Shown here: positions 3,944 through 47,379 of the stretch, piece after piece | Numbering within the stretch: position 1 is the first letter of the stretch | How the letters are laid out: each line of letters opens with the position of its first letter | DNA from: Escherichia coli | GTDB taxonomy: Bacteria > Pseudomonadota > Gammaproteobacteria > Enterobacterales > Enterobacteriaceae | Assembly: GCF_030013205.1 (NCBI RefSeq) | Contig: NZ_CP122648.1 | Direction: 5' to 3' (one strand) | DNA length: 64,000 nucleotides | Notes under the pieces: generated by a model | What the model saw: the letters and a program-made list of their open reading frames with translations, nothing else | The model's database searches: none | Told to the model about the DNA's origin: nothing | Position numbers and translations under genes: made by a program

Positions 3944-3974
3944 AGGGCGCGACGTTTGCGCCCTTTAAGTATTT
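3944..3974 (+). terminator. Rho-independent terminator downstream of bglX
   Basis: GC hairpin agggcgc-gacgttt-gcgccct followed by T-rich tract. Confidence 0.5.
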
Positions 3975-4081
3975 ATCTGATTCTGCAACTGAATCCGCCC
4001 AGACAGGCTAACCCTGTCATTATCAACTATGCTTTTCTCTTAATTAGCTGAAAACAACAGTAAAAGAATGAGGAAAGCATC

Positions 4082-4999
4082 ATGCCACTCTCAAAGCTCT
4101 GGGCAGGTTCATTGGTTTTGTTGGCAGCCGTGAGCCTGCCGCTACAGGCGGCTTCCCCCGTTAAGGTCGGTTCAAAAATCGATACCGAAGGCGCGCTGCT
4201 CGGCAATATCATTTTGCAGGTGCTGGAAAGTCACGGTGTTCCTACGGTAAATAAAGTGCAACTGGGAACGACTCCCGTGGTGCGCGGGGCGATTACTTCC
4301 GGTGAACTGGATATCTATCCGGAATATACCGGCAATGGCGCGTTTTTCTTTAAAGATGAAAACGATGCGGCGTGGAAAAATGCCGGGCAAGGCTACGAGA
4401 AAGTCAAAAAGCTCGATGCAGAACAAAACAAGTTAATCTGGCTGACGCCTGCGCCTGCAAATAACACCTGGACCATCGCCGTGCGTCAGGATGTGGCAGA
4501 GAAAAACAAACTCACTTCGCTTGCCGACCTGAGTCGTTATCTGAAAGAGGGCGGCACCTTCAAACTGGCGGCCTCGGCAGAATTTATTGAACGCGCCGAT
4601 GCCTTACCCGCGTTTGAAAAAGCCTATGGCTTTAAGCTCGGTCAGGATCAGTTGCTGTCACTGGCTGGTGGCGATACGGCAGTGACGATCAAAGCCGCTG
4701 CTCAGCAAACCTCTGGCGTTAATGCCGCAATGGCTTACGGTACCGACGGTCCGGTCGCGGCGCTGGGGCTGCAAACCTTAAGCGATCCGCAAGGCGTGCA
4801 ACCTATCTACGCGCCTGCACCAGTGGTGCGTGAATCGGTGTTGAAGGAGTATCCGCAAATGGCACAGTGGCTACAGCCAGTCTTCGCCAGCCTCGATGAA
4901 AAAACATTGCAGCAACTGAATGCCAGCATTGCTGTGGAAGGACTGGATGCCAAAAAAGTGGCTGCCGACTACCTGAAACAAAAAGGGTGGACGAAGTAA
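4082..4999 (+). CDS. osmF: Glycine betaine/osmoprotectant-binding periplasmic protein
   Basis: 305 aa with signal peptide; first gene of the osmF-yehYXW ABC transporter operon. Confidence 0.85.
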   Translation: MPLSKLWAGSLVLLAAVSLPLQAASPVKVGSKIDTEGALLGNIILQVLESHGVPTVNKVQLGTTPVVRGAITSGELDIYPEYTGNGAFFFKDENDAAWKNAGQGYEKVKKLDAEQNKLIWLTPAPANNTWTIAVRQDVAEKNKLTSLADLSRYLKEGGTFKLAASAEFIERADALPAFEKAYGFKLGQDQLLSLAGGDTAVTIKAAAQQTSGVNAAMAYGTDGPVAALGLQTLSDPQGVQPIYAPAPVVRESVLKEYPQMAQWLQPVFASLDEKTLQQLNASIAVEGLDAKKVAADYLKQKGWTK

Positions 5000-5005
5000 T
5001 TTCCC

Positions 5006-6163
5006 GTGACTTATCTACGTATTAATCCTGTTCTGGCGCTGCTGCTGTTGCTGACGGCAATCGCAGCGGCGCTGCCGTTTATCAGTTACGCGCCTAATCG
5101 TTTAGTTTCGGGTGAGGGGCGTCATCTCTGGCAGCTGTGGCCGCAAACGATCTGGATGCTGGTGGGCGTTGGTTGCGCCTGGATGACAGCCTGTTTTATT
5201 CCCGCTAAAAAAGGCAGCATTTTTGCACTCATTCTGGCGCAATTCGTCTTCGTATTGCTGGTGTGGGGAGCAGGAAAGGCGGCGACACAACTGGCACAAA
5301 ATGGCAGTGCGCTGGCGCGTACCAGCCTCGGCAGTGGTTTCTGGCTGGCTGCGGCGCTGGCATTGCTGGCCTGTAGCGATGCCATCCGCCGAATCTCCAC
5401 GCATCCGCTGTGGCGCTGGTTGTTGCATATGCAGATTGCCATTATTCCGCTGTGGTTGCTGTACTCCGGCACGCTTAACGATCTCTCGCTAATGAAAGAA
5501 TACGCCAACCGTCGGGATGTGTTTGATGACGCGCTGGCGCAACATCTGACGTTGCTGTTTGGTGCGGTGCTGCCTGCGTTAGTGATTGGTGTGCCGCTGG
5601 GCGTCTGGTGCTACTTTTCCACTGCGCGGCAGGGGGCGATTTTTTCTCTGCTGAATGTCATTCAGACCGTGCCTTCGGTGGCGCTCTTTGGCCTGTTGAT
5701 TGCGCCGCTTGCCGCACTGGTTACGGCCTTTCCGTGGCTGGGTAAGCTCGGCATAGCAGGAACCGGAATGACACCCGCACTGATTGCGCTGGTGCTCTAT
5801 GCCTTGCTGCCGCTGGTGCGCGGCGTGGTAGTCGGCTTGAACCAGATCCCGCGCGATGTGCTGGAGAGCGCCAGAGCGATGGGCATGAGCGGGGCGCAGC
5901 GATTCCTGCATGTTCAGTTACCACTGGCGTTACCGGTATTTCTGCGTAGCCTGCGGGTGGTGATGGTGCAAACCGTCGGCATGGCGGTGATTGCGGCGTT
6001 AATCGGCGCAGGCGGTTTTGGTGCGCTGGTTTTCCAGGGGCTGCTAAGCAGTGCCATTGATTTAGTGTTGCTAGGGGTGATCCCGGTAATTGTTCTGGCG
6101 GTGCTGATCGATGCGCTGTTCGATTTGCTTATCGCACTGCTGAAGGTGAAACGTAATGATTGA
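5006..6163 (+). CDS. yehY: ABC transporter permease
   Basis: 385-aa polytopic membrane protein, GTG start; operon context. Confidence 0.85.
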
Positions 6164-10604: not shown

Positions 10605-11320
10605 TTAAAGTCTTAATTGTCGATGATGAACCGTTAGCACGGGAGAACCTGCGCGTATTTTTGCAGGAGCAGAGCGATATTGAAATTGTTGGAGAGTGTT
10701 CAAACGCCGTGGAAGGGATCGGCGCGGTGCATAAACTGCGCCCGGATGTGCTGTTTCTTGATATCCAGATGCCGCGCATCAGTGGTCTGGAAATGGTGGG
10801 AATGCTCGACCCGGAACATCGTCCGTATATCGTTTTTCTCACCGCGTTTGACGAATACGCTATTAAAGCCTTTGAAGAACATGCCTTTGATTATCTGCTG
10901 AAGCCAATTGACGAAGCGCGACTGGAGAAAACGCTGGCGCGATTGCGTCTGGAGCGCAGCAAGCAGGATGTTTCGCTGTTACCGGAAAATCAACAGGCGC
11001 TGAAATTTATCCCTTGTACGGGGCATAGTCGGATTTATTTGCTGCAAATGAAAGATGTGGCATTTGTCAGCAGTCGGATGAGCGGTGTCTACGTTACCAG
11101 TCACGAAGGGAAAGAGGGCTTTACCGAATTGACATTACGTACCCTGGAAAGTCGTACACCACTACTGCGCTGCCATCGTCAGTATCTGGTTAACCTCGCG
11201 CATTTACAGGAGATTCGTCTGGAAGATAACGGCCAGGCCGAGTTGATTTTGCGTAATGGCTTAACCGTGCCGGTCAGCCGCCGTTATCTGAAAAGCTTAA
11301 AAGAGGCGATTGGCCTGTAA
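10601..11320 (+). CDS. btsR: LytTR-family response regulator
   Basis: [17 protein letters not shown] receiver domain plus LytTR C-terminus; ATGA overlap with btsS stop. Confidence 0.85.
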
Positions 11321-38267: not shown

Positions 38268-38359
38268 TTTATTAACGCGATTGTAAAACTGCGGTTTTTA
38301 CTCGTTTACAACGCGTGCGCTGGACATTACCATCCTCCTCTGCGATTTATCATCGCAAT

Positions 38360-38437
38360 CAAACGACTCGGGGTGCCCTTCTGCGTGAAGGCTGAGAAAT
38401 ACCCGTATCACCTGATCTGGATAATGCCAGCGTAGGG
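38360..38437. repeat. attL: 78-bp copy of thiM TPP-riboswitch sequence (left junction of inserted element)
   Basis: Perfect 78-bp identity to 47250..47327; sequence to its left is native rcnR-thiM intergenic DNA, sequence to its right is element DNA. Confidence 0.75.
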
Positions 38438-38520
38438 GGCCAAAATAGTCTTGAAAATTATGTGGTTGTATCTCTTTTTGACCATAAATCATGCTGTTAA
38501 GGTACAAAAAGGGGTCGTTT

Positions 38521-39828
38521 ATGAGGTCAAGAACTCTCCCATACACATTTCAGCGAAACGGTAATTACTATCTACAAATCCGGCTTTCGGATGGTCGGAT
38601 ATACAAAAAATCACTTTTTACTGACAGTTATCGCGAAGCATCGGCGTTGATGATTGGCCTTACTCCGCACATTCCTTTCGTTAAATCACTCGCTACTCCG
38701 TTGCCGCAATTTAATAAGTTTGTTTCAAACTTGATCGCTTCGTCACGTAACGTAATGATTCCGTTGCCACTCCCTCAGCAATTGAACAATATTTCTAAAG
38801 AAGTTTTGCAGCTTCAACCACCAGCCAAACCGGAAAAGGTGCTAACACTTGCTGATGCGTGGGCTATGTACAAGGAGGAAAGAGGTCGAAATTGGACAAA
38901 ATCGATCTCAATGGCAAATGAGCGTTATATGGAGGTATTGCTTGTTGTCTTGGGAAAAGAAACAGACGTAACGGCAATCACCAAACAAGATATTAAGCGA
39001 GTAATGGAAACTGTCGAAAACTTACCAAAGCGTGTAGTGCAACCGTATAGGTCAATGACTATTCAGCAACTAATCGAATGTGATGATGTGCTGCCAGAGG
39101 ATTTAGTTGGTGCTGAGGCTGTACATAAGCACCTTAAAATCTACAAATCGTTATTCAAAACATTTCTGACTGAAAACAAAGATATTCTATCTAAGTCTCC
39201 GACTGATGGAATAGTAGCGGCACCATCCAAAGCTAGGTTTGGTGCATACAGTGCAGCAGAAATGAAAAAATTTGTAGGATGGGCACTAAAGCAGCCTGAT
39301 GGATGGCAGAAGTGGATCACTTTGTTGTTGGCGTACACAGGAGCCAGAAGAGGTGAGATTGCTAAACTGGAGAAGTCGCAGATCAAATTTGATGAAGATA
39401 GCCAGCGGCACTATCTTCTGATCGCGGAAAGAAGGCTGGGTAAAACTGAGAATGCTACAAGACAGGTAGTGATTCATCCCAAACTGATTGAGTGGGGGTT
39501 TCTGGATTTTGTTAACCGCCAATGGAAAGAGAAAATCTTTTCGGAAGTCTCAGGTCGAAATATGTCAAAGATAGGTAAAGTTCTTTCAGATGTTCGTGAT
39601 CAGCTTGATATTCCTTATCTTGATGATTATGGGCAGCGGCGCTTGGTGCATAGTTTCCGGCATACTATGATTTCTACTTGTTTAGCTGGTTGGGTGAGTA
39701 ATTTGGCGCATCTGCAACAGGTGGTAGGTCATGAGAAAAGCGGTTTAGGGATTACCAGACGCTATTTGCACTCTTTTCCTTTACGTTCAATTTGTTACGT
39801 GATTGATGGTTTGGACTGGTTAAATTGA
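38521..39828 (+). CDS. Tyrosine-type site-specific integrase
   Basis: ORF 38491..39828; RBS AAGGGG before ATG 38521; catalytic-region motifs ARRGEI, HSFRHT, and terminal RRYLHS tyrosine. Confidence 0.85.
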   Translation: MRSRTLPYTFQRNGNYYLQIRLSDGRIYKKSLFTDSYREASALMIGLTPHIPFVKSLATPLPQFNKFVSNLIASSRNVMIPLPLPQQLNNISKEVLQLQPPAKPEKVLTLADAWAMYKEERGRNWTKSISMANERYMEVLLVVLGKETDVTAITKQDIKRVMETVENLPKRVVQPYRSMTIQQLIECDDVLPEDLVGAEAVHKHLKIYKSLFKTFLTENKDILSKSPTDGIVAAPSKARFGAYSAAEMKKFVGWALKQPDGWQKWITLLLAYTGARRGEIAKLEKSQIKFDEDSQRHYLLIAERRLGKTENATRQVVIHPKLIEWGFLDFVNRQWKEKIFSEVSGRNMSKIGKVLSDVRDQLDIPYLDDYGQRRLVHSFRHTMISTCLAGWVSNLAHLQQVVGHEKSGLGITRRYLHSFPLRSICYVIDGLDWLN

Positions 39829-39897: not shown

Positions 39898-39927
39898 GAC
39901 CATATTGTCATCTTGAGGAACAAAAGT

Positions 39928-41499
39928 ATGGTTGCTCGTTCTAACCTTGTAAATTTAGATGCACTGATTAAGCGTGCTGATTTAGGTTTAAAGATCCAAG
40001 ATAACTCTTCATTTGAAACGCTAAACAGTATTCCTGCAAGAGAATTGAAATCAGGAAGTGGAATTGCTGCGCTTCTGAGAAAACCAGATTTCCAGCGTGA
40101 AACAAATCATTGGGGGCCTGAGCAGGTTGTATCGCTTCTCGAATGCTACATCAATGGTGATTTGATACCTTCCGTTATTCTTTGGCGGTCTTCAACCCAT
40201 CTTTTTGTGATCGATGGTGGTCATCGTTTAAGTGCGTTACGTGCTTGGGTTGAAGATGATTATGGCGACGGTCATATATCCCATCAACTTTTTGGGCATG
40301 ATATTCCTCGTGAACAACGCCGCGCTGCAGATAGAACGAGAAAGCTTGTGAAGGAGAGGGTCGGTAGCTGGGAATATTATCAGAAGTTGCTTGCCGATGA
40401 TGCTTCATTGACCGAGGAACAGCAGAGAAGAATCAGCGTATTAACATCTCGTGGAATCTCAGTCCAATGGGTAGTGGGTGATGTAGATAAGGCAGAAACT
40501 TCATTTTTTAACATCAATATGAAGGGAACTCCTCTTGATGCTATCGAAGAGATGCTTCTAAAAAATCGCAAGAAAAGTATTCCGATAGCAACCCGAGCAA
40601 TTATTCGTGCCGGTAGAGGTCATCGCTATTGGTCGGGGTTTGATCAGAGCATTGCCCAGCAACTTGAAGATAAATCTGCAAAGCTGCATCGTTTGCTGTT
40701 CGAACCTGAAGTTGATCGCCCTATTAAAACTCTTGATCTTCCATTAGGCGGTTCTAGGGGGGTCAGGACAGCGATCCAAGTTTTGAAAGATTTCTTACTG
40801 ATCACTGATTGCAACCAGAATGGTGTTTTGAAAAAAATCGAAGCCTACCCTGATGATGCGTCGGGTGCTGATACGTTAAGAATCCTTTCCAAAGCCACAT
40901 CATTAAGCAATAGAATTACAGGCAATGGCGATGGTAGCTTGGGGCTTCATCCAGCGATTTATTTTTATGGTCCGACTGGAATCCACTCAACGCCAATGTT
41001 TCTAGGAACTGTGCTACTGGTGGCAAAACAACTCTCTAACAATAATGGTCAATTCTTTAAAGACTTCACAACAATCAGATCTAGGCTTGAGAGAATAATG
41101 ATCGAATTTAAGGACTTGATCGCAATGATAGTACAAAAACCAGGTAGTAATGTCCGAGTGGCTCGCTACTGTGATTTTTTAAATGCGGTGATCAAATCAC
41201 TCAAGCAGGGAGAGAATATTGATGAGAGTAAGCTTATCGAGCTGGCCGAATTGGAGGGGAGAATACTCTCTGGAGATTTTAAGAGAACATCAGCAAAAAT
41301 CAGCGATGAACAAAAAAGTAAGGTGTTCATTGACGTGGCTCTGCGCAACGCTTTGAAATGTCCGATTTGCCAAGGTTACCTTGATACTGAAAAGTCAGTT
41401 TCTTATGATCATATCGTACGTGTCCGTGAGGGAGGAGATGGTAATTCTGACAATGTACAGTTGACACACCCTTACTGTAACCAGTCAGTGAAGTGTTAA
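39928..41499 (+). CDS. DUF262/DGQHR (ParB-like) domain + C-terminal HNH endonuclease fusion; candidate defence nuclease
   Basis: N-terminus FQRETNHW ... FVIDGGHRLSALRAW (QR/DGQ(Q/H)R-like ParB-fold motifs); C-terminus CPICQGYLDTEKSVSYDHIVRVREGGDGNSDNVQLTHPYCNQ (HNH His-Me finger). 523 aa from ATG 39928. Confidence 0.7.
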   Translation: MVARSNLVNLDALIKRADLGLKIQDNSSFETLNSIPARELKSGSGIAALLRKPDFQRETNHWGPEQVVSLLECYINGDLIPSVILWRSSTHLFVIDGGHRLSALRAWVEDDYGDGHISHQLFGHDIPREQRRAADRTRKLVKERVGSWEYYQKLLADDASLTEEQQRRISVLTSRGISVQWVVGDVDKAETSFFNINMKGTPLDAIEEMLLKNRKKSIPIATRAIIRAGRGHRYWSGFDQSIAQQLEDKSAKLHRLLFEPEVDRPIKTLDLPLGGSRGVRTAIQVLKDFLLITDCNQNGVLKKIEAYPDDASGADTLRILSKATSLSNRITGNGDGSLGLHPAIYFYGPTGIHSTPMFLGTVLLVAKQLSNNNGQFFKDFTTIRSRLERIMIEFKDLIAMIVQKPGSNVRVARYCDFLNAVIKSLKQGENIDESKLIELAELEGRILSGDFKRTSAKISDEQKSKVFIDVALRNALKCPICQGYLDTEKSVSYDHIVRVREGGDGNSDNVQLTHPYCNQSVKC

Positions 41500-42976: not shown

Positions 42977-43516
42977 TTACGCCTCCTCTTCTTCCTTCTT
43001 AATTCGCTGTACCGTCGAAGGAGCAACATTAAAGATCTCGGCGGTTTTACGCACTGACACGCCATCAGAAAGGGCTTTCTTTATACCTTCTCGATCCACT
43101 GCCTTACCTTTACCACGCTTTCTAGGATTGACGGCTTGCGCTTCTCGTTTACGTTCTAACATCAGTTCACGTTCACACGTTGCCACTGCCGACAACATAG
43201 TAAGCATCATTTTTCCCATCGCGCTTGTAATGTCTGCAATGATCCCTTCTTTGTGAAAGCGAACAATTACACCACGATTATTAAGTTGTTCCACTAAGGC
43301 AAGAATGTCTAAGGTGTTACGCCCTAAACGATCAAGAGAGTGGACGTGTAAGGTGTCGCCTTCTCTCAGATAGGCTAAACACGCTTGTAAGCCTGGGCGG
43401 TTAGTGTCTTTACCAGACAGCTTATCTTCAAAGACTTTGTCGAGAGTTAGTCCTGCAAGCTGGCGATCAGTATTTTGATCTACAGTGCTCACACGCTTAT
43501 AGCCGATATTGCTCAT
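42977..43516 (-). CDS. Small serine recombinase (resolvase/invertase family)
   Basis: MSNIGYKRVSTVDQNTDRQ with catalytic Ser; C-terminal HTH; RBS AAGGGGA. Confidence 0.8.
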   Translation of the reverse strand: MSNIGYKRVSTVDQNTDRQLAGLTLDKVFEDKLSGKDTNRPGLQACLAYLREGDTLHVHSLDRLGRNTLDILALVEQLNNRGVIVRFHKEGIIADITSAMGKMMLTMLSAVATCERELMLERKREAQAVNPRKRGKGKAVDREGIKKALSDGVSVRKTAEIFNVAPSTVQRIKKEEEEA

Positions 43517-43565
43517 AAAATCCCCTTGATGTATCGATTTGGCACCACTCCAATGCAAATGAGTG

Positions 43566-43653
43566 TGTTGTATTCATTTGGTCTGTTTCAAGCCTTATGG
43601 ATACGGAATATTACACGATTTAGCTGTATTCATTTGGTATGCCTAATGGATAC
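43566..43653. promoter_or_regulatory. Two res-like palindromic sites upstream of the serine recombinase
   Basis: tgtattcatttggtctgtttcaagccttatggatacgg and tgtattcatttggtatgcctaatggatacgc; each has imperfect inverted half-sites GTATTCAT / ATGGATAC. Confidence 0.4.
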
Positions 43654-43785
43654 GCAGGGGGATAGATTAAATGGTGTTCTGTTTATACAGGTTTATTTGT
43701 TAGATCAACAAGTTGGCATTTCTAAACAGATGTTTGAACGTTGCCAAATGCCTTGACAACACAAGAAAATGGCTTGCTATGAACG

Positions 43786-44100
43786 CATTACACGAAATAA
43801 GGCTATAAAAACAAAATAAATTTTAAAATTTGCACAAAAACGAGAAAACTCGTTCGACAAATAATAGATTGGTTTTTAATCGACAATTTCTGACAATTTC
43901 TGATGGTGCTCTGTAAACCGCATTACACAAGGCTTTGCGAAAGTGATGTAAAAGTGAAGAAAGTTAACATTGCACTTTGAAGCCATTTTTCATTGGATTT
44001 TTTAGTAGGGAATTACACAGGGAATAGAGAGCATTATTCTATGATTTACACAGGGAATATAGGGGATTATGGCACACACATAGAAAGGCATTACACAGAG
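43786..44100. repeat. Iteron-like direct repeats, family A (TTACACAGGGAAT-type, 5 copies)
   Basis: cattacac(g/a) at 43786 and 43921, aattacacagggaat at 44011, tttacacagggaat at 44046, cattacacagag at 44089. Confidence 0.5.
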
Positions 44101-44163
44101 TGAGTGCTATGTGATGATTGGTAGTAACGGTAGGTCACTGTGAGCTACCCCCCACAGAATTCT

Positions 44164-44340
44164 GTTACCCCTATCAAGTCTAACAGGGGTTTATAAAGAA
44201 TAATAAACCGATGATACCCCTATCAATATTGATACCCCTATTAGCTTTGATATGACTACCCCTATCAAAACTGATACCCGATAAGAATAAGTTAATAAGA
44301 ATAATTAAATAATATTCTTTATATCTATATATATGATCTT
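44164..44340. repeat. Iteron cluster, family B (GATACCCCTATCAA x5) plus AT-rich unwinding-like tract: candidate oriV
   Basis: tacccctat at 44166, 44215, 44233, 44257 and tacccgat at 44275 (spacing 18-49 bp), followed by about 60 bp of nearly pure A/T (44281-44340). Confidence 0.55.
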
Positions 44341-45503
44341 TTTGCCTTCCGGCGTTAGCTTCACTCTCTGGCAAGCAGCCTTACTCCGCTATCTTTGGGC
44401 TTCGTGGCTGGCCCGTTCCGCTCACACCGAAAGCAAAGCGTTACTCTTCTTCGTGTAACTATCGTTGGCGGTAACGCCACACGAAGAAATACTATTGCGC
44501 TGTGCGCAGTAAGAGTAATCACCTAACCAATCACCTGATTGCTTACGTGTTAACTCTCTCTAACTCTTAATTACCCTCCTACATTTAATAACTCTATTAT
44601 TCTCTGTAGTTGTGTAATTACTCGAAGAGAGAGCGGCTAAAGCTCAATTACACTCTGCTTTCCTCGTGTAATTTCACTAAGCCTCAATACAATTTCACTT
44701 CCTACATTCTGTAGTCGTGTAATAGTTTTCGGTGGGGAAAAGCCAGAGGCGACACCGAAAGAAAATTCTGATCTTATTAATCTTATCTATCTTAGTTAAT
44801 CTTCTTACTTACTTTATCTACTTTATTATTAATAATAGCTTTATAAGCTCTCTGTGTAGCTCTCTGACGCAAGAAACAGCATTCAGGAAGGGAATCACCT
44901 TAGAAAAGTGTTCTTTGCGTCATAATGTGTTTTATGAAGGATTCAGAGGTGTTTCATAACACAAGGTATAGAGGATATTTTAGTTAATTAAAAATAAGGG
45001 GGCTAAATGCTTCTCTAACAGCATTAAGCAGGGTAGAGAATGGAAATGCATTGCCTACGTATATATAAACTCACTACAAGGCTTTACAGAGCGTTTTATA
45101 AAGTAACTAATCTAAGAACTCTCTGTTTTATATCTATCATCATCTTTCCATCATCTAACAAATACAAAATAAGCCCCTTAAATAAGCCTCTGGCGAGCTA
45201 AACAGCCATTACATAAGGGAATGTATTTCTTTTATCAAAACTTCGTTAGAACGCGTTTTAGAGCGTTTTATACAATAAGGAAGAATAGGACCGTCCGCAA
45301 GAGCACGAATTGCTAAGAAAGAATGTAAACGCATGAAAAATATCAGATTTTTTATGAAAATATATTGACAAATGTTTCTTTATATGTAATAATAGGTATT
45401 AGAGAGACAGAAAAACATTCTTCTCTAAATAATCAAAATCAATGCACTTTGAAGCCGTCAGGCTTGCAAGGTGTTTTTCTTTTAACTGAATAAGGAGTTT
45501 TTT

Positions 45504-45936: not shown

Positions 45937-46599
45937 ATGATTAAACATACAAAACCTTTCTTAGGAATAGATTATGACTTACTAGCAATCACTTCCCTAG
46001 TGATTAACGGCAAAACAAAAGAAGTAAAACTACATCATAAGATCATTTATTCTTATTTGTTAAGTTTATCTGGCACATATCAAAAGGTAACACCATCTTT
46101 GAAAGGTATTGGTGAGCGGTTAGGAGTAGGTACAGATCAGACGGTACGCCGTCATATCAAAGATCTTGTTTCTTTTGGATGGTTGAAGATTGAGGAAAGG
46201 GCAGGTAGCACAAATGCTTATATTGTCCTTCCTTATGAACAAGAAGCCCAGACACAACAAGAAGCTACCGTTAAAGCTGTTCAGGAACAGCTTCCCCCTA
46301 CGGAAGATAATAAAGAGTTTTCTTTTGATGTTCTTGATGATTGGGATGCGCCTTTACCTTGGGAAATGGAAGAAACGCCATCTGATGAAAAGGTAGCTAA
46401 TGATAATGAGGAGGATGTGTTAGAGAATTTTGCCTCTCTTATCATCCAGGAGAAACACACAAGAACAGGAGGGGCATCATTTATAGAATTTGCAACATCG
46501 TTAGCCTGTAAGCACAGGATAAAGCTACCAAATGGTATTGAGGCATATTTTGCTAAGAAACATCCCAAAGTATATGAAGACTTTGATATTCCATTTTAA
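45937..46599 (+). CDS. Winged-helix protein, candidate replication initiator
   Basis: RBS AAGGAG; wHTH-like SLKGIGERLGVGTDQTVRRHIKDLVSFGWLKIEE; acidic C-terminal half; sits next to iteron region. Confidence 0.5.
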   Translation: MIKHTKPFLGIDYDLLAITSLVINGKTKEVKLHHKIIYSYLLSLSGTYQKVTPSLKGIGERLGVGTDQTVRRHIKDLVSFGWLKIEERAGSTNAYIVLPYEQEAQTQQEATVKAVQEQLPPTEDNKEFSFDVLDDWDAPLPWEMEETPSDEKVANDNEEDVLENFASLIIQEKHTRTGGASFIEFATSLACKHRIKLPNGIEAYFAKKHPKVYEDFDIPF

Positions 46600-47245: not shown

Positions 47246-47379
47246 CAACCAAACGACTCGGGGTGCCCTTCTGCGTGAAGGCTGAGAAATACCCGTATCA
47301 CCTGATCTGGATAATGCCAGCGTAGGGAAGTCACGGACCACCAGGTCATTGCTTCTTCACGTTATGGCAGGAGCAAACT
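47246..47379 (+). promoter_or_regulatory. TPP (thi-box) riboswitch controlling thiMD
   Basis: Contains the canonical thiM aptamer sequence CAAACGACTCGGGGTGCCCTTCTGCGTGAAGGCTGAGAAATACCCGTATCACCTGATCTGGATAATGCCAGCGTAGGGAAGTC and expression platform up to the SD (ggcaggag). Confidence 0.85.
47250..47327. repeat. attR: 78-bp direct repeat (native riboswitch copy adjoining thiM)
   Basis: Identical to 38360..38437; downstream sequence continues as native thiM leader. Confidence 0.75.

What the first reader, a model, noticed from the sequence alone, without database searches (positions are those of the whole stretch)
42977..43660. Serine recombinase with tandem res-like palindromes
A 179-aa resolvase/invertase-family recombinase is followed upstream by two about 35-bp sites, each with imperfect inverted half-sites (GTATTCAT ... 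ATGGATAC), the arrangement of a res/multimer-resolution site. This could resolve multimers of the replicating form. Alternatively, if a partner site exists in inverted orientation, it could invert a segment, for example the adjacent regulator/secreted-protein pair.
Basis: partly seen in the sequence, partly recalled or inferred. Interest (0 to 1): 0.5.

Follow-up and report, generated by a model that had tools for sequence, protein, structure and literature searches.

The report
Resolvase with its three-part res site
A small serine resolvase gene sits next to its own three-part DNA target site inside a 8.9-kb mobile island of E. coli, most likely to cut dimers of the island's circular replicating form back into monomers; this is an ordinary, well-understood kind of system in a little-described host element.

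Summary
Window 42977-43516 (-) encodes a 179-aa resolvase/invertase-family serine recombinase. It has the Ser10 nucleophile, the LDRLGR motif and a C-terminal HTH.

Directly upstream lie three dyad sites, not two, all built from one 12-bp half-site (GTATTCATTTGG):
- site I, 43626-43653, 28 bp, central AT
- site II, 43570-43604, 35 bp

Lengths and spacing of sites I and II match the Tn3/gamma-delta res site. In 82-83%-identical homologues the six half-sites are about 83% conserved, against about 45% for spacers and site centres. The gene is under strong purifying selection (dN/dS 0.04-0.07).

No partner site exists in the window. 154 complete E. coli genomes carry the gene-res-flank stretch unbroken, so inversion is not supported.

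The host is an 8.9-kb island inserted in the thiM TPP-riboswitch leader. It has a tyrosine integrase, iterons and a replication-initiator-like gene. Related elements carry at the same position either this cassette, a 62%-identical resolvase with its own res, or no recombinase but a dif/cer-like Xer site.

That swap argues for dimer/multimer resolution of the excised replicating circle. It is a new member of a known kind. No recombination was demonstrated.

The parts
42977..43516 (-). Serine recombinase (resolvase-type), 179 aa. N-terminal catalytic domain with Ser10; C-terminal HTH.
   Evidence: ORF list. Pfam Resolvase + HTH_7. Best solved relatives are gamma-delta and Tn3 resolvase and Gin, E about 1e-27 to 1e-28. 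dN/dS 0.04-0.07 against copies in other elements.
43626..43653 (.). res site I, the putative crossover site. 28-bp dyad GTATTCATTTGG-TATG-CCTAATGGATAC, with central AT at 43639-43640.
   Evidence: Sequence. The core CATTAGGCATACCA is invariant in all 7 aligned sequences. Half-sites are 58-83% and the centre 100% conserved against the 82-83% homologues. Role as crossover site is inferred from the 28-bp length and the distal position.
43570..43604 (.). res site II, an accessory site. 35-bp dyad GTATTCATTTGG-N11-CCTTATGGATAC.
   Evidence: Half-sites are 83-92% conserved against 45-55% for its centre. Its centre lies 52.5 bp from the centre of site I.
43531..43566 (.). res site III, a degenerate accessory site. 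36 bp, GTATCGATTTGG-N12-GCAAATGAGTGT on the + strand. It ends 14 bp before the recombinase ATG.
   Evidence: Half-site GTATCGATTTGG scores 2 mismatches to the consensus. Repeat D9. Half-sites are 83-92% conserved against 42-50% for the centre. The exact left boundary is uncertain.
43531..43653 (.). Whole res region, 123 bp: sites I, II and III with 21-bp and 3-bp spacers.
45937..46599 (+). Context: replication-initiator-like protein of the island (220 aa, wHTH).
   Evidence: PHROG replication initiation families 270/428/391, E 1e-9 to 1e-10. Pfam HTH_36.
44163..44280 (.). Context: iteron-like array, four copies of TGATACCCCTATCAA, next to an AT-rich stretch. Putative origin.
   Evidence: the repeat finder families D2/D3. 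The array is replaced by other repeat families in sister elements whose Rep N-terminal half also differs.
38491..39828 (+). Context: tyrosine integrase of the island.
   Evidence: PHROG integrase E 1e-26. RefSeq annotation of identical islands.
38360..38437 (+). Context: attL. 78-bp exact direct repeat inside a TPP riboswitch copy.
   Evidence: Rfam TPP at 38359-38454. Exact repeat with 47250-47327.
47250..47327 (+). Context: attR. 78-bp exact direct repeat inside the thiM TPP riboswitch.
   Evidence: Rfam TPP at 47249-47345.. thiM/thiD lie downstream.

Best explanation
This is a resolvase-res dimer/multimer-resolution cassette belonging to an 8.9-kb integrative, self-replicating island.

Proposed mechanism (inferred by analogy with Tn3/gamma-delta resolvase):
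- Recombinase dimers bind the three dyad subsites upstream of their own gene.
- When two copies of the 123-bp res lie in direct repeat on one supercoiled circle, for example a dimer of the excised, replicating island, the accessory sites II and III intertwine and bring the two site I copies together.
- Ser10 cuts at the central AT of site I (43639-43640).
- Subunit rotation and religation then yield two monomer circles.
- In the integrated, single-copy state nothing happens.
- Binding to res probably also autoregulates the gene, because site III ends 14 bp before the ATG.

Shown here: protein family and catalytic residues, site anatomy, conservation, selection, element context, and the absence of partner sites or isoforms.

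Inferred: binding, the crossover point, the topology requirement, and that the island replicates as a circle.
For: 1. Protein. Resolvase + HTH_7 domains. The catalytic residues align with gamma-delta resolvase.

2. Site. There are three dyads of one half-site family. The order is I(28)-21-II(35)-3-III(36), with site III nearest the gene. Tn3 res also has three dimer-binding sites, with only site I catalytic (PMC9943657). The 28-bp site I, the 34/35-bp site II and the 53-bp I-II centre distance match gamma-delta from my own knowledge.

3. Footprint. Half-sites are 58-92% conserved (mean about 83%), against 33-55% for spacers and centres, in homologues from unrelated contigs.

4. Co-variation. 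The 62%-identical allele in sister islands and on an IncF plasmid has a different half-site (GTAGTGAT/ATCACCAC). It keeps a 28-bp distal and a 36-bp middle dyad. Small 5.5-kb plasmids with 51-56% homologues show the same plan.

5. Selection. dN/dS is 0.04-0.07.

6. Replicon context. A Rep-like gene and iterons sit in the same conserved module.

7. Functional swap. About 332 genomes carry sister elements in which the cassette is replaced by a roughly 380-bp segment. That segment holds a dif/cer-like site with the XerD arm at 11/11, the XerC arm at 7/11 and a 6-bp centre. No such site was found in the resolvase-bearing island and element loci or the window; the one other hit is in the small plasmid L008, which also carries a recombinase homologue.

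8. No partner site and no rearranged isoforms were found.
Against: - No recombination product, circular form or dimer was observed; everything functional is inferred.
- Site III is 36 bp rather than the 25 bp of Tn3/gamma-delta, and its left half is weak (8/12).
- In more distant homologues the third element is made of direct, not inverted, half-sites, so the accessory architecture is not uniform.
- The Rep-like protein is almost absent from sequenced plasmids. The element is therefore rarely, if ever, maintained as a plasmid, and the need for multimer resolution during a transient replicative phase is an assumption.
- The consensus scan found no clear sigma-70 promoter inside res, so autoregulation is unproven.
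- Sequence scores do not separate resolvases from invertases (Gin scores nearly as well).
Confidence: 0.7

Rival explanations
1. DNA invertase. The recombinase flips a segment, for example the adjacent XRE regulator and secreted-protein pair, between this site and an inverted partner.
For: PHROG 125 is labelled 'DNA invertase'. Gin invertase scores almost as well as resolvases. A weak 28-bp dyad exists at 3969-3996, with 3 mismatches in each half.
Against: No second site exists within the island or at 2 mismatches or fewer as a dyad anywhere in 64 kb. Half-site hits outside res are at chance level: 4 against 5.4 expected. Three directly ordered dyads are a resolvase architecture, not a hix/gix pair. 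154 genomes are collinear across res and none has the flank inverted. The 3969-3996 dyad is 40 kb away in core chromosome, and about 0.3 such dyads are expected by chance.
Confidence: 0.03
2. Cointegrate-resolution system, or a remnant of one, from a Tn3-family transposon that inserted into the island.
For: The res geometry (28/35 bp, 52.5-bp I-II distance) is closest to Tn3/gamma-delta. Many tblastn hits on plasmids are annotated tnpR.
Against: No transposase gene or fragment lies anywhere near. The cassette is bounded by conserved element sequence, not by terminal inverted repeats. It occupies the same slot in hundreds of elements, with alternative alleles. The closest homologues are on 5-kb plasmids without tnpA.
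Confidence: 0.03
3. Regulator or relic. The protein now serves mainly as a DNA-binding repressor of itself or of the neighbouring origin region, and recombination plays no role in the island's life cycle.
For: Site III abuts the ribosome-binding site. One ATTACACG motif of the origin-region repeat family lies in the I-II spacer. The element is nearly always chromosomal.
Against: All catalytic residues are retained under dN/dS of about 0.05 across alleles. The 28-bp site I core, including its centre, is invariant. Replacement by a Xer-type recombination site in sister elements points to recombination, not regulation, as the selected function.
Confidence: 0.12
4. Module-exchange or capture site. 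res site I serves chiefly as a recombination hotspot that swaps cassettes between elements or fuses the excised circle with plasmids that carry a matching res. The IncF plasmid copy would be an example.
For: Homology between resolvase-bearing and resolvase-less elements breaks at window 43644-43647, inside site I. A partial copy of the module sits on an IncF plasmid.
Against: The break is at the outer edge of site I (TGGATAC against TGGATTACAC), not at the central AT where a serine recombinase exchanges strands. Resolvase synapses normally disfavour intermolecular fusion, which is established knowledge for Tn3-type systems. The plasmid copy is flanked by IS elements.
Confidence: 0.1

Closest known systems
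Tn3 / gamma-delta (Tn1000) resolvase TnpR and its 114-bp res
   Same: Same protein fold family, with the best solved-structure matches at E about 1e-28. Both have three dimer-binding dyads upstream of the resolvase gene, with the crossover site most distal. Site I is 28 bp with a central AT. Site II is 35 against 34 bp. The I-II centre distance is 52.5 against 53 bp. The res facts come from PMC9943657 and my own knowledge.
   Different: There is no transposase and no transposon ends. Site III is 36 bp, not 25 bp, and lies 38.5 rather than 34 bp from site II. The half-site sequence is unrelated. The alignment shows clear divergence from gamma-delta, including a 5-residue gap. R2 of the Tn3 'R interface' is Ser here.
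Plasmid multimer-resolution serine resolvases (RK2/RP4 ParA-res, R46 Per, pSM19035 beta, staphylococcal Sin)
   Same: A small serine resolvase with res next to its gene, serving a replicon rather than a transposon. Homologues at 51-56% identity lie on 5.5-kb non-mobilizable plasmids with equivalent site arrays.
   Different: The host here is an integrated island with a tyrosine integrase, not a maintained plasmid. Sin and beta use two sites plus HU/IHF, whereas this one has three dyads. No sequence comparison with ParA, Per or beta was possible with the tools, so those resemblances rest on my own knowledge.
Xer-dependent resolution sites (dif, ColE1 cer, pSC101 psi)
   Same: Same proposed job: converting dimers to monomers. 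Sister elements carry a dif/cer-like 28-bp site in the very slot occupied here by resolvase and res.
   Different: An unrelated mechanism, using the host tyrosine recombinases XerC/XerD. The window itself has no such site.
DNA invertases Hin / Gin / Cin / Pin
   Same: Same protein family and size. Gin scores E 1.7e-27.
   Different: Invertases use two inverted 26-bp sites and a Fis enhancer. Here there are three direct-order dyads, no partner site and no orientation polymorphism.

Membership tests
Small serine recombinases (resolvase/invertase family, PF00239 + C-terminal HTH) | N-terminal catalytic domain with the nucleophilic serine (Ser10 in gamma-delta) and conserved Arg8, Asp67, Arg68, Arg71 | tested here: met
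   Pfam Resolvase E 5.9e-34. The alignment to 2gm4/1gdt shows YKRVS10T and LDRLGR aligned to the gamma-delta residues.
Small serine recombinases (resolvase/invertase family, PF00239 + C-terminal HTH) | C-terminal helix-turn-helix DNA-binding domain, with the catalytic domain first | tested here: met
   HTH_7 at residues 143-174, E 9e-5.
Tn3/gamma-delta-type res site | Three dyad binding sites of one half-site family with different inner spacings, located immediately upstream of the resolvase gene | tested here: met
   Sites of 28, 35 and 36 bp at 43531-43653. Half-sites are conserved and centres and spacers are not.
Tn3/gamma-delta-type res site | Exact geometry: I = 28 bp, II = 34 bp, III = 25 bp; centres 53 and 34 bp apart | tested here: inconclusive
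   Site I at 28 bp and the I-II distance of 52.5 bp fit. Site II is 35 bp (+1). Site III is 36 bp (+11) and the II-III distance is 38.5 bp. Site III does not fit, so this is a res of the same plan but not the same geometry.
Tn3/gamma-delta-type res site | Part of a Tn3-family transposon (tnpA, 38-bp terminal repeats); function is cointegrate resolution | tested here: not met
   No transposase ORF or annotation exists in the island or its relatives.
Tn3/gamma-delta-type res site | Recombination only between directly repeated full res sites on one supercoiled molecule, giving a 2-noded catenane | not testable with these tools
   Needs in vitro or in vivo recombination assays.
Replicon multimer-resolution system | The cassette belongs to a circular, autonomously replicating DNA | tested here: inconclusive
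   A Rep-like gene and iterons sit in the same module, with an integrase and att repeats for excision. No circular or replicating form was observed, and the Rep is rare on plasmids.
Replicon multimer-resolution system | Interchangeable with other dimer-resolution devices in related replicons | tested here: met
   Sister elements carry a dif/cer-like Xer site in the same slot or a second resolvase/res allele.
DNA invertase systems (Hin/Gin/Cin/Pin) | Two inverted crossover sites flanking an invertible segment; both orientations found in populations | tested here: not met
   No partner dyad. 154 of 154 full-length matches are collinear. All island copies are collinear.
DNA invertase systems (Hin/Gin/Cin/Pin) | Fis-bound recombinational enhancer | not tested
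   No enhancer search was made.

The most novel reading that the evidence does not exclude
The resolvase-res cassette may be one of three interchangeable dimer-resolution cassettes: resolvase A/res A, resolvase B/res B, or a Xer dif/cer-like site. These sit in a so far undescribed, very common family of small integrative, self-replicating phage-like elements of E. coli. By my counts roughly 150, 290 and 330 of 5,426 complete genomes carry them.

The 12.5-kb members carry a major capsid protein, a tape-measure-like protein and a tail-fibre-like protein, and share 97-99.6%-identical patches with T5-like phages. The thiM island in the window would then be a capsid-less derivative that carries defence cargo (GmrSD-like).

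If so, the family would be a new type of phage satellite or mini-prophage in which plasmid-style dimer resolution is part of the life cycle.
Probability: 0.3. Interest if true: 0.55.

Novelty: new member of a known kind. Interest (0 to 1): 0.3.

Why it matters
The finding itself is textbook biology: a small serine resolvase next to its res. Its value is mostly annotational.
- It turns a 'recombinase family protein' and an unannotated 123-bp stretch in hundreds of E. coli genomes into a defined resolution cassette with mapped subsites.
- It gives two natural, orthogonal resolvase/res pairs (62% identical proteins with different half-sites) that could be tested as recombination tools.

The context is more interesting. 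The cassette marks the island as something that must pass through a circular, replicating stage. The resolvase / Xer-site swap is a clean natural experiment supporting that view, in an element family that does not appear in the satellite literature I could search.

Tried and rejected
- NCBIfam gave only far-below-cutoff hits for the recombinase (XisF, Mpi and others), so no named equivalog applies.
- Sequence scores cannot separate resolvase from invertase. Classification rests on site architecture.
- The promoter/terminator scan found no convincing minus-strand promoter within res. I saw by eye a TTGATC-N15-TATAAA candidate upstream of site I and a TAATAT in the I-II spacer, but the latter is not conserved in L005/L006, so I make no promoter claim.
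- Rfam at E <= 0.1 found only the two TPP riboswitches in 37.8-47.5 kb.
- Megablast against PLSDB found only two partial hits.
- P0007 could not be located on a contig.
- Literature searches for the island, the accession numbers or a T5-associated satellite returned nothing relevant. One search failed on a term that was too short.
- I considered that the homology break at 43644-43647 marks site-specific exchange at site I. I rejected this as the main reading because the break lies at the outer half-site edge, not at the central AT.
- I considered the weak 28-bp dyad at 3969-3996 as an inversion partner and rejected it as chance.
- I did not use structure prediction or the large protein and metagenome scans, because they would not change the verdict.

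Full report
**1. What is at the coordinates**

The minus-strand ORF 42977-43516 starts at the ATG at 43516; a TTG further upstream would give 193 aa. It encodes a 179-aa protein.

- Pfam finds the resolvase catalytic domain (PF00239, E 5.9e-34, residues 4-129) and the resolvase HTH (PF02796, E 9e-5, residues 143-174).
- The best solved relatives are gamma-delta resolvase (E 4e-28), Tn3 resolvase (2e-27) and Gin invertase (1.7e-27). Sin is more distant.
- The printed alignment shows the Ser10 nucleophile (MSNIGYKRVS10T), Arg8, the LDRLGR motif (Asp67/Arg68/Arg71) and the E-helix ER pair in place.
- NCBIfam has no equivalog above cutoff. RefSeq calls the identical protein 'recombinase family protein'.

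**2. The sites**

Reading from the gene outwards on the minus strand, the 140 bp upstream contain three dyads:

- GTATCCATTAGG-CATA-CCAAATGAATAC, 28 bp, window 43653-43626
- a 21-bp spacer
- GTATCCATAAGG-N11-CCAAATGAATAC, 35 bp, 43604-43570
- a 3-bp spacer
- ACACTCATTTGC-N12-CCAAATCGATAC, 36 bp, 43566-43531
- 14 bp carrying a Shine-Dalgarno-like AAGGGG, then the ATG

One of them is 28 bp, not about 35 bp, and the third was missed.

All six half-sites fit a 12-mer, GTATTCATTTGG, with 0, 0, 2, 2, 3 and 4 mismatches. In the whole window, hits with 2 mismatches or fewer number 8, of which 4 lie here. Shuffles give 5.4, so the hits outside res are at chance level. The 13-mer GTATTCATTTGGT occurs only at the two strong sites.

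A generic test for two adjacent dyads with the same arms finds only this locus in the real window. Such a pair turns up in 26 of 200 shuffled windows. Sequence statistics alone are therefore modest. Position and conservation carry the argument.

**3. Conservation**

Two metagenomic contigs encode 82-83%-identical recombinases in a different context: three unrelated genes downstream and different sequence upstream. Aligned with the window and four E. coli copies (alignment A1):

| Segment | Identity to the window |
|---|---|
| The six 12-bp half-sites | 58-92% (mean about 83%) |
| The 4-bp centre of site I | 100% |
| I-II spacer | 43% |
| Centres of sites II and III | 42-55% |
| Sequence beyond site I | 36-38% |

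The site III half-sites are among the best conserved (83-92%), which supports a third site.

The gene is under strong purifying selection. dN/dS is 0.04-0.07 at dS 0.18-0.27 against copies in other elements.

**4. Co-variation in more distant relatives**

A 62%-identical, 183-aa allele sits at the same place in sister islands (E. coli PCN033, L003) and on an IncF plasmid (L001). Its upstream region has a different half-site but the same plan: GTAGTGAT-N12-ATCACCAC (28 bp), a 20-bp spacer, GTAGTGAA-N20-ATCAACAC (36 bp), then a further ATCACTAC half-site.

Homologues at 51-56% identity on 5.5-kb non-mobilizable plasmids again show a 28-bp distal dyad and a 34-36-bp middle dyad. Their proximal element is made of direct half-site repeats 15-16 bp apart. 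The proximal accessory element therefore varies within the family, while the 28-bp and roughly 35-bp dyads are constant.

**5. Comparison with known res sites**

Tn3 res is 114 bp and has three dimer-binding sites. Only site I is catalytic; sites II and III are architectural. [quoted passage not shown] Cleavage leaves 2-nt 3' overhangs at the site centre (PMC9943657).

From my own knowledge the gamma-delta values are 28, 34 and 25 bp, with centres 53 and 34 bp apart. Here the values are 28, 35 and 36 bp, with centres 52.5 and 38.5 bp apart.

Site I, site II and their spacing match closely, including a symmetric central AT at 43639-43640. Site III does not match. I therefore file this as a res of the Tn3/gamma-delta plan, not as a member of that exact geometry, and not as a transposon system. 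No transposase or terminal repeats exist.

**6. What carries it**

The window is E. coli chromosome: metG, apbC, the yeh fimbrial genes and rcnA on one side, thiM and thiD on the other.

- Rfam finds two TPP riboswitch aptamers at 38359-38454 and 47249-47345.
- They share a 78-bp exact repeat, 38360-38437 = 47250-47327. This brackets an 8.9-kb low-GC island.
- The island runs in this order: tyrosine integrase; a GmrSD-like DUF262/HNH protein; a small secreted protein; an XRE regulator; the resolvase and res; about 1.9 kb without ORFs that holds repeat arrays; two small ORFs; a 220-aa replication-initiator-like protein (PHROG 270/428/391, HTH_36); and a small HTH-like gene.
- The same island sits in this site in about 39 complete E. 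coli genomes, always collinear. The slot next to the integrase varies: GmrSD-like, HNH endonuclease, or a 316-aa hypothetical.

**7. A larger family**

The res region recurs at 90-95% identity in 116 further genomes. There it lies in roughly 12.5-kb elements at srsR or tRNA-Thr. These share the resolvase-res-noncoding-Rep module and add a major capsid protein, a tape-measure-like 609-aa protein, a tail-fibre/endolysin-like protein and their own tyrosine integrase. Short stretches are 97-99.6% identical to T5-like phages.

Within the shared module, the iteron array (44150-44290) and the N-terminal half of Rep are the variable parts. Different repeat families occur in L001, L003 and the window. 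This is what is expected of an initiator and its origin.

**8. The natural experiment**

A 1.19-kb query spanning gene, res and flank gives 154 genomes with one unbroken, collinear match. No inversion or deletion isoform with a breakpoint at res was seen.

About 440 other genomes match only from window 43644-43647 rightwards. These are sister elements without any recombinase gene (L014-L016). The break lies at the outer edge of site I (TGGATAC against TGGATTACAC), not at its centre. I therefore read it as a cassette boundary, not a crossover scar.

In place of the 680-bp resolvase-res cassette they have about 380 bp that contain AGTGCATATTA-CGATTA-TTATGTTAAAT.

- The XerD arm of dif matches at 11/11, the XerC arm at 7/11, and the central region is 6 bp.
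- The same scan found nothing in the 64-kb window or in L001-L013, except a psi-like site on the small plasmid L008.
- This module is present at 80% coverage or more in 332 genomes. The allele-B resolvase module is in 293, and allele A in 154.

Three alternative occupants of one slot, two of them resolvase/res pairs and one a candidate Xer site, point to one common function: dimer resolution.

**9. Mechanism and confidence**

The most likely course is this. After excision by the integrase, the island replicates from its iteron origin. Homologous recombination or replication generates dimers. The resolvase, bound to res I-III on both copies, resolves them at site I. In the chromosome the single res is silent. 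Binding probably also autoregulates the gene.

I give this 0.7. The weak points are:

- No circle, dimer or recombination product has been seen.
- Site III is atypical.
- The Rep-like protein is nearly absent from sequenced plasmids, so replication is at most transient.

Rivals:

- An invertase (0.03): no partner site and no isoforms.
- A Tn3-type transposon remnant (0.03): no tnpA.
- A regulator or relic (0.12): argued against by the retained catalytic residues, the invariant site I centre and the Xer swap.
- A module-exchange or fusion hotspot (0.1): the break is not at the crossover point.

**10. Verdict**

This is a new member of a well-known kind of system, and interest in it is low to moderate. 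What deserves a separate look is the host element family and the three-way cassette swap.

Noticed in passing
window 38359-38454 and 47249-47345: There are two full-length TPP riboswitch aptamers (Rfam 61.9 and 71.2 bits). The island integrated into the thiM leader and duplicated 78 bp of it (38360-38437 = 47250-47327). The left copy now sits 37 bp upstream of the island's integrase gene (38491), so integrase expression might respond to thiamine pyrophosphate.
   Followed up: partly
L014 5830-5857, L015 5834-5861, L016 5830-5857 (minus strand): Sister elements lacking the recombinase carry a dif/cer-like candidate Xer site, AGTGCATATTA-CGATTA-TTATGTTAAAT, in the slot occupied by resolvase and res in the window. 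The module is present in about 332 complete E. coli genomes.
   Followed up: partly
L013 1-13200 (E. coli S19-651); also L010-L012, L014-L016: These are roughly 12.5-kb integrative elements at srsR, tRNA-Thr, tRNA-Leu or tRNA-Gly. They share the window's resolvase-origin-Rep module and add a major capsid protein (phrog_29), a tape-measure-like 609-aa protein, a tail-fibre/endolysin-like protein and a tyrosine integrase. I found no description in the satellite literature searched.
   Followed up: partly
L013 about 4750-5320 and about 11010-11090: Patches are 97-99.6% identical to T5-like phages inny and muut (hypothetical genes), and 91% identical to a 'tail tube initiator' gene of phage EC_OE_11. 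This hints at exchange with, or dependence on, T5-like phages.
   Followed up: no
window 39913-41499: A variable cargo slot lies next to the integrase. Here it holds a 528-aa DUF262/HNH protein (RefSeq: GmrSD restriction endonuclease domain). Other copies of the island hold an HNH endonuclease or a 316-aa hypothetical there. It looks like a defence hotspot.
   Followed up: partly
window 44163-44280; compare L003 6100-6220 and L001 7320-7500: Iteron-like arrays differ completely between sister elements: TGATACCCCTATCAA x4 here, a roughly 22-bp TAGTTCACAGTGACCTACCCCC x6 in PCN033, and GTAAC-N5-GTTAC palindromes x5 on the IncF plasmid. The N-terminal half of the Rep-like protein differs as well, which suggests matched initiator-origin specificities.
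   Followed up: partly
window 43610-44723 and 46674: The motif ATTACACR occurs 12 times in the window against 3.7 expected. Nine copies cluster around the putative origin: five on the + strand at 43610-44097, and three on the - strand at 44611-44723. One lies in the res I-II spacer. The binding factor is unknown.
   Followed up: partly
window 44330-44540: A GC-rich segment, conserved at 87-90% between elements, lies inside the otherwise AT-rich ORF-free region. The minus-strand RNA fold has z = -2.1, and there is no Rfam match. It could be a structured RNA or a DNA element.
   Followed up: partly
L001 7200-8552 (IncF plasmid pEND_Eco 19019-1): A partial copy of the element module (allele-B resolvase, res, origin region, small ORFs) sits on a conjugative IncF plasmid near sopAB. 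It is interrupted by an IS3-family element.
   Followed up: partly
window 3969-3996: A weak 28-bp dyad, GTATTTATCTGA-TTCT-GCAACTGAATCC, resembles res site I, with 3 mismatches per half. It lies in a core intergenic region 40 kb away and is most likely chance.
   Followed up: partly
window 19922-26515 (minus strand): Two large adjacent ORFs (1210 and 983 aa) have no NCBIfam hit at E <= 1e-5.
   Followed up: no
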